Source: Mustelus asterias | Taxonomy: Eukaryota | Direction of reading: 5' to 3' | NCBI RefSeq assembly: GCF_964213995.1 | Contig: NW_027590932.1 | Coordinates: forward strand, 62,001 to 126,000 | Length of the DNA: 64,000 bases | Part shown: positions 45,355 to 49,676 of the stretch, in pieces | Layout of the letters: each line of letters starts with the position of its first letter | Position numbering within the stretch: position 1 is the stretch's first letter | Program-made: the position numbers

Positions 45355-46032
45355 AAGCCGCAACACCGCACCAATTGGCTGCCTGAACACGTCAGAAAAG
45401 TTAGCTGGCAATCGCAGTTTGCATGTTGTGTATGGGATTCATGGTCATGTGCTGGTAAATGCGGTAATAGGACGTATCAAATTGATTGAATGTGCATCGT
45501 ACATTTCCATACAGTATAGAATTTGGACGTAATATTCAGCACAAACAAGCCTTCTGATCCTCATTGTGATTGCCGGCCCCGAACACTATCCGCCAACCTA
45601 TTACATTTGCTCATGATCCTTCAAACGAGTGAGTATTTCGGGCGATTATCACCGTTTTATTTCGTTGATGTTTTTTCGATTTTCCTCTAATATTTATTCC
45701 CCTCATTGGGGAGGCCTGGCTCCTCGAGTTTTGCTCTTGGACCCATGAATGCCCCGAGTCCATTTAATGGAAAATCAAACTGAACTATCTCAGTCAGAAC
45801 GGCCGGTCTGGGGGAGGGGTTTTGCTTCCCCGAGAAGGGCAGCCTTGGCTGATGAATGTACCCAGAAGAAAATTGCAATGTTAATCGTCTGGGGCCAGTG
45901 AGCTCAGGAAATAAATCTCTGAACATTCCCCCATTTTAATTTCACTCACGGAATGCAGTCCATCGCTAAATTTCAGTAGATTAGTGAATAAGAGCCCGCG
46001 TTATTATGTGTATATCTGTCTAAGTGTGTTTT

Positions 46033-46074
<42 letters not shown>

Positions 46075-49000
46075 GTGTCTGTCTGTGCATATGTTTTTGG
46101 CTGTGTGTCTGCGCGTGCCTGACTATGTGTGCATGTCTGTGTGTCTTTGTTTGTGTCCCTGCGTTTTGTGAGTTTCTGTGCGTGTCGGTGTGTAACTGCA
46201 CCTGTTTTTGTCTGTAGGAGGGAACCTATGTGGCGAAAGAGAGAATATCTTTTTGTGATTGTATGTGACAGAAAGAGAGGGAGAGATAATGTGTGTATTT
46301 TTGACTGTAAGAGTGTATGCGTTCGAGAGAGAGAAAAATTGTGCTCAAAACGTATTTCATTTTAAATCAAAAACACATCTAAGAGTTATGTTTGTCACAT
46401 TCTGTTATTTTTTCCAGCGCAGAGCCAGCTGGATAAACTTTTCCAAAAGCCCACAGTAGTTGCAGTGAGTGAAGGGAGTCCCCTGATGTTGTCCTGTCAC
46501 TACCCCACCACATACACAGCAGCTTACCTATATTGATACGTACAGTACTCGGGACAGGGCCATCAGTACATGCTGGTCAGACATACTGCTGGTAATGAAG
46601 AGAACGCGCCTACATTTGGAAAGCGGTTTTCTGCTGTACAGGATAAAATGAACACAAACATCCTTTTGAACATCACAGACACTCAGATTTCTGACTCAGC
46701 CGTGTATTACTGCGCGGCGATGAAGCACCACGTTACATCGAGCCTTAACACTCGTACAAAAACTAACAGTTCCAGGTGATGTGTGACATTACACGCTCTT
46801 TCGGAGAATGTGCGCAGACGCGATGGGCCAATTGGCCACCATCTGCACTGCAGGGATCGCATGCATTCCATGGATCCCTAATTGTCCTGAAAGTAAATGG
46901 ATTGCTACTGGGTTGAGAGAGTAGTGAAGAGTCAATCTGGAGTCGCATGTCGGTCAGGTTAAGGAAAGATGGCGATGTCCTCGTCTGACGCCCTGAAGGA
47001 CATTGCTGAGTAAATTAATTTTCCAAGTCAAACGATGAAAATTCACGATCACCATTATTGGTGTTAATTTTCAATCACAGACTGTGTTAATTTAACGTTT
47101 ACCAGTTTCAAATGTTAGAATTGAATCAATTGGTATGGAAGATTAACGTGGCCCTCTGACTAATGTGCGGAGTGACATTGTCACATGCCCACTGTCTCCT
47201 CGATAAGGGAAGTTATTTTCGAGACATTGCAACAGTGACTGCATTGCGAAAGTACCAGATTGGCTGTCACATGCTTTAGGATAACTCGTGGTGCTCAAAT
47301 GTATTTGTTTCCAGTTTCCAATTCTCCAAAATTGATAAACTTTTAATGATTTATCTGAGGAATTTGCTGCAGATAATGAACACTATAAAGCGCTAAAAGT
47401 TTTTCTTCGTCTCGAAAGCTGACGTCACACGAAGTGTTGGTGTTTCATATGCCCTGTTAAAACATTTCCCCTTCTCTGTTCTGATTTTGATTCGTCTACT
47501 TTATGTTTCAATTGCTTCAAATGGAATTAGATAATCTGATCATCAGAATGAACTTAGGAGCGGAAATCTGTGGTCTCAGTAGCATTTGCAGTAGCTGAAT
47601 ATTTTTCCATGAATCATCTTCAGTAGAGAATTACACATCCTTACACCTGGTCACTGTTTCTATCAGGAGTTACATGTAGATGGGAAACTTCCGTTAGGAC
47701 CGGAAGTGCACATGTATCTGACTGAGGTAACTGGGACCGCAACTGCCAATCTCAGGTTATGGCAGCAGCGAGAAGCTCCACCTCCCGACCTCGCTTTAGA
47801 ACCATAGAACCATAGAAAATTACAGCTCAGAAACAGGCCTTTTGGCCCTTCTTGTCTGTGCCGAACCATTTTATGCCTAGTCCCACTGACCTGCACTTGG
47901 ACTATATCCCTCCACACCCCTCTCATCCATGAACCCGTCCAAGTTTTTCTTAAATGTTAAAAGTGACCCCGCATTTACCACTTTATCTGGCAGCTCATTC
48001 CACACTCCCACCACTCTCTGCGTGAAGAAGCCCCCCCCTAATATTCCCTTTAAACTTTTCTCCTTTCACCCTTAACCCATGCCCTCGGGTTTTTTTCTCC
48101 CCTCGCCTCAGCAGAAAAAGCCTGCTTGCATTCACTCTATCTATACCCATCAAAATCTTATACACCTCTATCAAATCTCCCCTCAATCTTCTACGCTCCA
48201 GGGAATAACGTCCCAACCTATTCAATCTCTCTCTGTAACTCAGCTTCTCAAGTCCCGGCAACATCCTTGTGAACCTTCTCTGCACTCTTTCAATCTTATT
48301 TACATCCTTCCTGTAACTAGGTGACCAAAACTGTACACAATACTCCAAATTCGGCCTCACCAATGCCTTATATAACCTTACCATAACACTCCAACTTTTA
48401 TACTCGATACTCCGATTTATAAAGGCCAATGTACCAAAGGCACTCTTTACGACCCTATCCATCTGTGACGTCACTTTTAGGGAATTCTGTACCTGTATTC
48501 CCAGATCCCTCTGTTCAACTGCACTCTTCAGAGTCCTACCATCCTACGTTCTTCTTTGGTTTGTCCTTCCAAAGTGCAATATCTCACACTTGTCTGCGTT
48601 AAATTCCATTTGCCATTTTTCAGCCCATTTTTCTAGTTGGTCCAAATAATTTATAATAACGTTAGCGGTTAAACTGACAACGGTGCACTTTTTTTTCCTC
48701 AAGGAATCTTCATTCCCGTAAAGGTGACAGAGTGAGCATTTCATTCATTGGAAGACTGATTTTGCAAGTTATGTTCACAGCGAGGACGTAAGGCAAAAAA
48801 AAAACTCTGCTGGACAATTGCTAACTGAAAGTTTAGCAGAATTGTCCATAAGTCAAACTAGAAACTTATAAATCCCTTTGAATGTGTGTAATATTAATCC
48901 CGGATTCTAAAAATCCTGCATGAACTAAACATTGATGAAAGATCCGTTATTTATAATATATTCCCTGCAAGTTATCAATGTGTGTCATATTCTGTGTTCG

Positions 49001-49676
49001 CTATGACGTACATACGACGTCAGTGAACTTCAATATATTGCTGTTAAACAAAAGGAATTCGAGTTTTCAGCAGTGTCAGCGATTACTGTGCGTTCACACA
49101 CACTCAGTGTGTGAATTGCGGCATTGTGCATTGATGTCATTGAATGGTAAATGTTACTTCCTTCTGAATATCATTATCCCGTTTGAAATTTCAATCTTTG
49201 CAGTTTGTGCATTTGGATCAGTTACTGTCCGATTGTCAGGAGACTGGTGGCTGTACCCTACGCCAAACACAGAATGTCATGACATATGAGCGGGAACAGG
49301 AGACACCGAGCCTCAATACTGGTAGAACCAGCGGTGACATATTGTCAGTGTCTGCAGGTTTCTAAGTAAATAGGCGTAAAGACAAACAGCAATGTGGTTA
49401 TTCGGTATCTGTGCAATGTTTGAAGCGTTTATTACAGGTAATTAATTTGAGTGCAATTTTGAACTAAACGTGAACAGTACTTGGGGTAAAACGTGAACAC
49501 TGTGGGGTAAAATAGTAAAATCTACATGTTTAGATTTGTAAACGATACCATCATTTGGTCTTTCTGTGTCAGGTTTCGTGAAAATTGCATTGGCGTCGAA
49601 TTTGCAGCCAACACGCTGCCACCCTGATTAAGGATGCCATGTTGGTCTCCATTGTGTCAGTCTCTGTGGCGCAATT

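What the first reader, a model, noticed from the sequence alone, without database searches (positions are those of the whole stretch)
45370..49500. TCR V-gene island embedded inside a large tRNA gene cluster
Seen: the V array ends at ~16.7 kb and tRNA copies start within 1 kb. About 29 kb later a V pseudogene with RSS (V8) and a further V leader lie between tRNA copies. Known: tRNA genes bind TFIIIC and can act as chromatin barriers, and TCR alpha/delta recombination depends on locus looping. Inference: an antigen-receptor V array and a Pol III array have been shuffled together here. The tRNA cluster may bound the recombining domain, or it may drive V birth-and-death by ectopic recombination. 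I am not aware of this arrangement being described for shark TCR loci, but I cannot check.
Basis: partly seen in the sequence, partly recalled or inferred. Interest (0 to 1): 0.78.

Follow-up and report, generated by a model that had tools for sequence, protein, structure and literature searches.

The report
Dead TCR V fragments inside tRNA cluster
A broken T-cell-receptor V gene and the severed signal-peptide exon of a second one lie stranded between blocks of duplicated tRNA genes, most likely as debris of genome rearrangement, not a working unit.

Summary
V8 (46418-46725, +) is a V-set exon with a TGA at the conserved Trp and a real 23-spacer RSS (46726-46764). A 46-nt V leader exon sits at 49392-49437, and it has no V exon. 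Both lie inside a tRNA-rich stretch (17.66-62.33 kb) holding 6 well-formed tRNA genes of six different isoacceptors. That stretch also holds 15 degenerate tRNA relics found with a custom covariance model. None of these lies in the V array at 1-17 kb.

The stretch is built from old paralogous blocks (62-81% identity), both direct and inverted. The island (about 43.65-49.49 kb) has no paralog in the window apart from transposon pieces. The tRNA-Asn block's similarity to its two paralogs starts at 49487-49496, 50-58 nt after the leader's splice donor. In the paralogs a tRNA-Cys block lies upstream of that point; here the V leader does. So a rearrangement junction cut a V gene in its leader intron.

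My reading: this is a dead fragment of a V array caught in tRNA-block duplications. "Shuffled together" is supported. One V death at a block junction is supported. V birth is not. A boundary role is untested: a recalled CTCF core motif is not enriched. The shark origin, linkage to J/C and conservation in relatives could not be checked. Interest is modest.

The parts
46418..46725 (+). V8 V-exon, a pseudogene. The acceptor AG is at 46416-46417, an in-frame TGA at 46534-46536 replaces the conserved Trp, and Cys104 is at 46711-46713. No credible leader lies upstream; (TG)n-rich low-complexity DNA fills about 46030-46200.
46726..46764 (+). V8 RSS: heptamer CACCACG, 23-nt spacer, nonamer ACAAAAACT
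   Evidence: 4 such sites in the window, all directly after V exons; shuffles mean 0.25
47799..48647 (-). LINE 3' fragment, 96% identical to 36175-37025. A young insertion between V8 and the leader.
49392..49437 (+). Orphan V leader exon (L-part1), MWLFGICAMFEAFIT plus 1 nt, with the GT donor at 49438-49439. It belongs to the V1/V2/V3 leader family.
49440..49496 (.). Interval that holds the rearrangement junction inside the leader intron. Similarity of the tRNA-Asn block to its two paralogs starts at 49487-49496. A local 21-23-nt tandem duplication lies at 49470-49513.
49660..49733 (+). tRNA-Asn-GTT gene, 222 nt after the leader donor. A T8 run lies 11 nt downstream; 20 of 21 pairs form.
49496..53171 (.). 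Block A': an inverted, colinear paralog of block A (24192-29468). It carries tRNA-Asn and the Val-like relic at 52373-52444.
24192..29468 (.). Block A, holding Val-like and Glu-like relics and a very decayed Asn-like relic near 29.23-29.30 kb. A LINE RT fragment at 27256-28509 is inserted.
29407..42443 (.). Left copy of a direct colinear duplication (8 HSPs) with 55144-62146. It carries Cys-, Thr-, Val-, Lys-, Lys- and Pro-like relics and is swollen by LINE DNA at about 34.6-38.8 kb.
55144..62146 (.). Right copy of the same duplication. It carries tRNA-Cys (55447-55518 -), Glu-like relics at 55955-56023 and 56659-56730, and tRNA-Lys (58251-58323 -). The Asn-like relic (54986-55058) lies just before it and tRNA-Thr (62259-62331 +) just after.
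17663..23864 (.). Proximal part of the tRNA stretch: Glu-like relic 17663-17728 -, Val-like 21133-21200 +, Glu-like 21881-21949 -, tRNA-Gln 22364-22435 +, tRNA-Glu 23793-23864 +. N runs lie at 19523-20644.
981..16334 (.). V array V1-V7 in mixed orientation (+ + - + - - -). Only V5 (12200-12487 -) has an open frame plus a good RSS. V7 has an open frame, but its heptamer has lost CAC. The other five are broken.

Best explanation
The island is a dead remnant of a TCR-type V array. It holds two consecutive, same-strand V genes about 2.6 kb apart and was caught between blocks of a multi-tRNA gene cluster. That cluster grew and reshuffled by old direct and inverted segmental duplications. V8 decayed in place: it has a stop at the conserved Trp, no recognisable leader and a weakened heptamer. 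The next V gene was cut in its leader intron when a copy of the tRNA-Asn/Val block was joined there, so its V exon is gone. Most tRNA copies then decayed too, leaving 6 well-formed genes and at least 15 relics.

Shown here: the V parts, the RSS, the tRNA genes and relics, the paralogous blocks and the position of the junction.

Inferred: the order of events, and that nothing in the island now works in recombination.
For: - V8 is a V-set exon with a real RSS and a stop codon.
- The leader is homologous to the V1 and V3 leaders and stands alone among 55 comparable sites.
- No V exon follows it. tblastn with two V queries at E<=10 found only an 8-residue chance match (sequence read).
- The tRNA stretch consists of paralogous blocks. 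The inverted colinear pair 24192-29468 and 53171-49496 is made of pieces at 68-81% identity. The direct colinear pair 29407-42443 and 55144-62146 has 8 HSPs.
- At least 9 of the 15 relics lie inside HSPs that align them with an intact gene or with another relic.
- The three-way alignment shows that all three Asn blocks are alike from 49496 onward. Upstream, the 29-kb and 55-kb copies share tRNA-Cys-block sequence, while the 49-kb copy has the V leader.
- The island at 43.65-49.49 kb has no paralog in the window other than transposon pieces.
- There are no non-SINE tRNA-like hits in the V array at 1-17.6 kb, against 15 beyond it. If the hits were spread evenly, the chance of that split would be about 0.008 (my arithmetic).
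Against: - The order of events is not shown. The V genes could instead have been moved into an existing tRNA cluster.
- The junction is placed only to within 49440-49496, and the paralogs are old (62-78% identity there).
- A V exon or a paralog of the island could lie beyond 64 kb.
- N runs at 19523-20644 separate the main V array from most of the cluster, so linkage of the island to V1-V7 depends on the assembly.
- Three of the six tRNA genes lack a T-run terminator within 40 nt (Gln at +48; Cys and Thr none within 100 nt), so the number of active genes may be smaller than six.
- E-values of the custom model are rough.
Confidence: 0.7

Rival explanations
1. The tRNA cluster is a working chromatin boundary (TFIIIC/Pol III bound) that marks the edge of the recombining V domain. 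The island is what was left outside or at that edge.
For: The cluster begins within 1 kb of the last V of the array (17663 against V7 at 16041-16334). At least three tRNA genes look complete, with a close terminator. tRNA clusters have been proposed as barriers (a passage in PMC10113395; abstract of PMC4041453). Seven of the 8 Vs in the window are defective, which would fit a locus edge.
Against: There are no occupancy or contact data. The recalled CTCF core motif is not enriched: 1 hit against 0.57 expected, and none in the tRNA stretch. Fifteen of the 21 tRNA-type loci are decayed and would bind TFIIIC poorly if at all (12-18 of 21 pairs kept across the relics and SINE heads). tRNA gene positions turn over quickly in eukaryotes (abstract of PMC2888827).
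Confidence: 0.15
2. The whole window is an orphon: a decayed V cluster outside the true TCR alpha/delta locus that happens to sit beside a tRNA cluster.
For: The window has no J-like motif and no C exon. Seven of 8 Vs are defective, and they lie in mixed orientation.
Against: V5 has an open frame and a near-perfect RSS, and four RSSs are well kept. 64 kb is far too short to expect J or C in a translocon locus. Mixed V orientation is compatible with inversional joining (established knowledge of V(D)J recombination).
Confidence: 0.2
3. Assembly artefact: V-bearing and tRNA-bearing sequence were wrongly joined.
For: Four N runs lie at 19523-20644 in low-complexity DNA. The region is rich in repeats and old duplications, which is where assemblers fail.
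Against: V and tRNA sequence adjoin on both sides of the gaps without any N. The Glu-like relic at 17663 lies on the V-array side. V8 and the leader lie among tRNA genes in gap-free sequence from 20645 to 64000. The paralogs are only 62-81% identical, too diverged to cause a collapse.
Confidence: 0.08

Closest known systems
Vertebrate multi-tRNA gene clusters built by segmental or tandem duplication, with many pseudogenes (survey in PMC2888827; human 1q23.3 7.3-kb tRNA tandem repeat in PMC4041453; abstracts read)
   Same: Several different isoacceptors sit together, copied as blocks. Genes are mixed with decayed copies and turn over quickly. A boundary role has been proposed for some such clusters.
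   Different: Here the copies are old (62-81% identical), both direct and inverted, and broken up by LINE and SINE insertions. There is no regular tandem unit and no enrichment of the recalled CTCF motif. The cluster encloses antigen-receptor V fragments.
V pseudogenes, relics and orphons of TCR/Ig V arrays (birth-and-death evolution; established knowledge, no paper read for it here)
   Same: V8 is a classic V pseudogene: a stop at a framework residue with the RSS still recognisable. The leader-only fragment is a truncated V relic. Most neighbouring Vs are also defective.
   Different: The truncation point coincides with the edge of a duplicated tRNA block. The relics are separated from the main array by about 29 kb of tRNA-block and transposon DNA.
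tRNA gene cluster of the human extended MHC class I region next to butyrophilin (V-set) genes (recalled; the search listed no paper holding both 'extended MHC' and 'butyrophilin' together with 'tRNA genes', so this is not confirmed from a paper here)
   Same: A large tRNA cluster lies beside immune genes with V-type domains.
   Different: Those V-set genes do not rearrange and are intact. No interleaving with RSS-bearing V segments is known to me.

Membership tests
Rearranging antigen-receptor V gene segment (TCR alpha/delta type) | V-set Ig domain exon with framework Cys23, Trp41 and Cys104 | tested here: inconclusive
   V8 matches V-set at 57.2 bits. Cys23 and Cys104 are present, but Trp41 is replaced by TGA. 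It is a member by descent and is broken.
Rearranging antigen-receptor V gene segment (TCR alpha/delta type) | RSS with a 23-nt spacer directly 3' of the V exon | tested here: met
   CACCACG-23-ACAAAAACT starts 12 nt after the Cys104 codon. All 4 such sites in the window follow V exons; shuffles gave a mean of 0.25. The heptamer keeps CAC but differs from CACAGTG at 3 of 7 positions.
Rearranging antigen-receptor V gene segment (TCR alpha/delta type) | Split leader: L-part1 exon, short intron, then V exon | tested here: not met
   V8 has no credible leader upstream; the only candidates lie in (TG)n low-complexity DNA. The 49392 leader has the exon and donor but no V exon.
Rearranging antigen-receptor V gene segment (TCR alpha/delta type) | Chain type alpha/delta, not beta, gamma or Ig | tested here: inconclusive
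   After multi-domain antibody constructs, most of the best single-domain PDB hits for V5 and V8 are TCR alpha chains. V7 gives a mix of antibody and TCR alpha chains. No reference tree was built, and the window has no J or C.
Functional nuclear tRNA gene | Cloverleaf with a standard anticodon and a high covariance score | tested here: met
   Six genes score 51-67.6 bits against an Rfam gathering score of 29. ARAGORN calls the same six. 20-21 of 21 pairs form.
Functional nuclear tRNA gene | Pol III terminator (a run of at least 4 T) shortly downstream | tested here: inconclusive
   Met for Glu (+7), Lys (+8) and Asn (+11). For Gln the run is at +48. Cys and Thr have none within 100 nt.
Functional nuclear tRNA gene | Expression and TFIIIC/Pol III occupancy | not testable with these tools
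   No expression or ChIP data are available.
tDNA chromatin boundary or insulator | Bound TFIIIC (and/or CTCF) with a change of chromatin state or contact domain across it | not testable with these tools
   Only a motif check was possible: the recalled CTCF core gave 1 hit against 0.57 expected, and none in the tRNA stretch.
tRNA-derived SINE (considered as an alternative identity of the 'tRNA copies') | tRNA-like head followed by a shared non-tRNA body, present in many dispersed copies | tested here: not met
   One such family exists: 10 copies, 6 of them inside the V array at 1-17.1 kb. Its four model-detected heads (201, 4517, 13458, 18132) were set apart. The 6 genes and 15 relics resemble eight different isoacceptor types and sit in paralogous blocks, not behind a shared SINE body.

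The most novel reading that the evidence does not exclude
The tRNA cluster is a conserved feature of the V-distal flank of the cartilaginous-fish TCR alpha/delta locus. It would act as a Pol III/TFIIIC-based domain border, and its repeated block duplications would be a direct cause of V gene loss, and perhaps of V transfer, at that border. The leader cut at 49.44-49.50 kb would be a fossil of such an event.
Probability: 0.1. Interest if true: 0.6.

Novelty: new variant of a known kind. Interest (0 to 1): 0.33.

Why it matters
If the adjacency is real and shared among relatives, it would be a natural case in which a Pol III gene cluster borders, and physically erodes, an antigen-receptor V array. 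It would offer a place to test tDNA barrier ideas at a recombining locus. As it stands, it mainly shows how V relics arise: one V gene was cut at the edge of a duplicated tRNA block. That is a concrete example of birth-and-death by rearrangement. The parts in the island are dead, so no effect on the repertoire is expected.

Tried and rejected
- A V exon downstream of the 49392 leader. tblastn with two V queries gave only 'LILGCHYP' at 49958-49981 (E = 1.0). Reading 49900-51500 showed no V exon.
- An apparent acceptor plus FR1 start, 'tgtgtcag|GTTTCGTGAAAATT', at about 49585 (alignment A1). Rejected because the same sequence is present in the 29-kb paralog of the tRNA block, so it belongs to that block.
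Rejected after the custom model and the paralogy analysis.
- Rfam at E<=1 over the window added only one marginal tRNA (52373-52444, 28.4 bits). At E<=10 on 16700-18400 it saw only a SINE head (17.9 bits) and missed the 17663 relic. This is why a custom model with filters off was needed.
- An RSS-like site at 7526 (-). It is a chance CACAGTG inside a tandem repeat with no V there.
- J-segment motif: 0 hits.
- CTCF core motif: not enriched.
- Pfam on long ORFs of the spacer gave only LINE RT and endonuclease domains and no other gene. Only 6 of the 89 listed ORFs were sent, chosen by length and position.
- Literature. Eight answered searches found no paper on a tRNA cluster within or beside a TCR V array. 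'TRAV' mostly matched 'travel'. The PMC10113395 passages concerned mouse behaviour plus one sentence on tRNA barriers.
So orthologous loci, the species of origin and linkage to J/C stayed unchecked.
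Full report
**What was checked**

The finding claims that a V pseudogene with an RSS ("V8") and a further V leader lie between tRNA copies. It places them about 29 kb beyond a V array that ends near 16.7 kb. I tested each element, mapped the whole 64-kb window, and then asked how the pieces came to lie together. Leader exons and V exons were analysed separately throughout.

**The V elements**

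tblastn with two window V exons finds eight V exons:
- V1 at about 1175-1419 (+)
- V2 at 3557-3799 (+)
- V3 at 6718-6437 (-)
- V4 at 8627-8888 (+)
- V5 at 12487-12200 (-)
- V6 at 14235-14012 (-)
- V7 at 16334-16041 (-)
- V8 at 46420-46725 (+)

V8 matches Pfam V-set at 57.2 bits. It has a TGA at 46534-46536 where the conserved Trp should be. It is followed by CACCACG, a 23-nt spacer and ACAAAAACT at 46726-46764. Sites of the form CAC-N4-23 nt-nonamer (at most 1 mismatch) occur 4 times in the window. All 4 come directly after V exons; shuffles gave a mean of 0.25. No credible leader precedes V8, because the upstream DNA is (TG)n-rich.

The other Vs are mostly broken:
- V1 has a frameshift and has lost Cys23 and Trp41.
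- V2 has a stop at Cys104, and its leader has lost the ATG.
- V3 has two stops.
- V4 and V6 have frameshifts.
- V7 is open, but its heptamer has lost CAC.
- Only V5 looks usable.

After multi-domain antibody constructs, most of the best single-domain PDB matches for V5 and V8 are TCR alpha chains. V7 gives a mix of antibody and TCR alpha chains. An alpha/delta type is therefore plausible but not proven. The window has no J motif, and the ORF listing shows no C exon.

**The orphan leader**

At 49392-49437 the sequence reads MWLFGICAMFEAFIT plus one base and then GT. It has the same 46-nt length and phase as the V1 leader. It shares 6 of 15 residues with each of the V1 and V3 leaders. Of 55 comparable sites (ATG, 46 open nt, GT), only this one and V1 itself reach 6 or more identities to both; the other 53 reach 3 or fewer. 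A scan of every position and frame finds only these three. The DNA aligns with the V1, V2 and V3 leaders. No V exon follows.

**The tRNA genes**

ARAGORN and Rfam at gathering score agree on six genes, each a different isoacceptor: Gln-CTG, Glu-TTC, Asn-GTT, Cys-GCA, Lys-CTT and Thr-TGT. They form 20-21 of 21 cloverleaf pairs. A T-run lies within 11 nt for Glu, Asn and Lys. For Gln it is at +48, and Cys and Thr have none within 100 nt.

A B-box scan showed more tRNA-like sequences by eye. I therefore built a covariance model from the six genes and ran it with filters off. At E<=0.1 there were 25 matches: the six genes, four heads of a tRNA-derived SINE, and 15 degenerate relics.

From the alignment the relics resemble:
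- Glu: 17663, 21881, 26840, 55955, 56659
- Lys: 32474, 33965
- Thr: 30807
- Cys: 29709
- Asn: 54986
- Val: 21133, 25932, 31269, 52373
- Pro: 38985

The Val and Pro labels rest on my recollection of vertebrate tRNAs, because the window holds no intact gene of those types.

All 15 relics lie beyond 17.6 kb. The V array holds only SINE heads. That SINE family has 10 copies, 6 of them inside the V array at 1-17.1 kb. One more very decayed Asn-like relic near 29.23-29.30 kb is visible only through paralogy.

**How the region is built**

Self-comparison shows that 17.6-62.3 kb is a patchwork of old paralogous blocks at 62-81% identity.
- An inverted, colinear pair joins 24192-29468 with 53171-49496.
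- A direct, colinear pair of 8 HSPs joins 29407-42443 with 55144-62146. The left copy is swollen by LINE DNA.
- Pfam found RVT_1 and endonuclease domains at 36916-38814 and RVT_1 at 27256-28509.
- At least 9 of the 15 relics lie inside HSPs that pair them with an intact gene or with another relic. This confirms independently that they descend from tRNA genes.

The island at about 43.65-49.49 kb has no paralog in the window except transposon pieces. One of those is a LINE fragment at 47799-48647 that is 96% identical to 36175-37025.

**The junction**

The tRNA-Asn block at 49.5 kb has two paralogs, at 29468-29278 (78% identity) and at 55217-55021 (62%). In the three-way alignment all three copies are alike from 49496 onward. 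Upstream of that point the 29-kb and 55-kb copies share sequence of the tRNA-Cys block. The 49-kb copy instead carries the V leader and the first 2-58 nt of its intron.

So a rearrangement junction lies between 49440 and 49496, inside the leader intron, and the V exon was lost there. A 21-23-nt local tandem duplication sits at that spot (49470-49513). V8 and the leader are on the same strand, 2.6 kb apart, and 0.85 kb of that gap is the young LINE fragment. This spacing is like that of the V1-V7 array. The island therefore reads as a fragment of V array that is truncated on its right side by a tRNA block.

**Interpretation**

The best-supported account is structural: a dead piece of V array stranded among duplicating tRNA blocks.

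"Shuffled together" is supported, and so is one case of V death at a block edge. V birth is not supported. V8's nearest relative in the window is only 33% identical in protein, and it has no DNA paralog.

A barrier role cannot be judged from sequence. The recalled CTCF core motif is not enriched (1 hit against 0.57 expected), and most tRNA-type loci are decayed. tRNA gene clusters with many pseudogenes and fast turnover are ordinary in eukaryotes (abstract of PMC2888827). A human 7.3-kb multi-tRNA tandem repeat has been proposed as a boundary (abstract of PMC4041453). One passage in PMC10113395 repeats the barrier suggestion.

**Limits**

- The N runs at 19523-20644 lie between the main V array and most of the cluster, and I did not try to fill them. 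V and tRNA sequence adjoin on both sides of the gaps in gap-free sequence, so the adjacency itself does not depend on them.
My impression that the repeats look elasmobranch is recollection only.
- No eukaryotic genome collection was available, so conservation in relatives and linkage to J/C are open.
- Eight answered literature searches found no report of a tRNA cluster within a TCR V array. That is absence from the held library, not proof of novelty. For PMC5931798 (nurse shark TCR alpha) I saw only the search listing.

**Verdict**

The arrangement is an unusual variant of two ordinary things, a decaying tRNA duplication cluster and V relics. It has a neat junction that shows how one V gene died. 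Interest is modest (0.33).

Noticed in passing
window 7427-7795: Tandem repeat between V3 and V4. Self-matches are offset by 112 and 168 nt, so the period is probably about 56 nt. It contains a chance CACAGTG that mimics an RSS at 7526 (-).
   Followed up: partly
window 15980-16400 (V7, -): V7 has an open V exon with all framework residues, but its RSS heptamer reads TGGAGTG. The CAC is lost, while the 23-nt spacer and the nonamer GCAAAAACT are kept. It is an 'ORF' V that probably cannot recombine.
   Followed up: partly
window 919-1618, 3295-4009, 6234-6936: V1, V2 and V3 form one family, copied as roughly 700-bp units at 66-68% identity, one of them inverted. The V array itself was shaped by direct and inverted duplications like those of the tRNA blocks.
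   Followed up: partly
window 18210-18305, 20950-21053, 23275-23408, 23522-23670, 24647-25029, 32119-32350, 41872-41994, 52456-52623, 61461-61591: A short, partly palindromic repeat family ('...gctggaaaatctcagcaggtctg...') occurs at least 9 times. All copies are in the tRNA stretch, often next to tRNA relics, and some are paired head to head. Whether it is a MITE or SINE, or part of the ancestral tRNA unit, is unexplained.
   Followed up: partly
window 87-276, 4515-4765, 9102-9168, 11145-11241, 13468-13650, 16922-17015, 18025-18207, 28685-28818, 40844-41030, 53731-53897: A tRNA-derived SINE family with the head GGCACGGTAGCGCAGTGGTTAGCACTGC..., in 10 copies spread over both the V array and the tRNA stretch. 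It is easily mistaken for tRNA genes by eye.
   Followed up: yes
window 38985-39073 (-): The Pro-like tRNA relic carries extra bases in the anticodon region (an 89-nt match to a 73-position model). It could be an insertion or a decayed intron-like piece.
   Followed up: no
window 19097-20765: Long GT/GA-rich low-complexity DNA surrounds the four N runs (19523-19655, 20178-20314, 20320-20482, 20512-20644). The runs were left as they are.
   Followed up: no
window 49470-49513: Local tandem duplication of 21-23 nt (gtgaacagtacttggggtaaaac / gtgaacactgtggggtaaaat) exactly at the V-leader/tRNA-block junction. It may be a repair footprint of the rearrangement.
   Followed up: partly
window 44580-44930 and 45310-45355: C-rich low-complexity runs and a (CT)n(CA)n microsatellite lie just upstream of the stated start of the island. 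The long ORF at 44720-45184 has no Pfam match.
   Followed up: partly
window 49660-49733: The tRNA-Asn-GTT gene has one unpaired position in its acceptor stem (T opposite T at the second pair), although it scores 64 bits and has a T8 terminator.
   Followed up: partly
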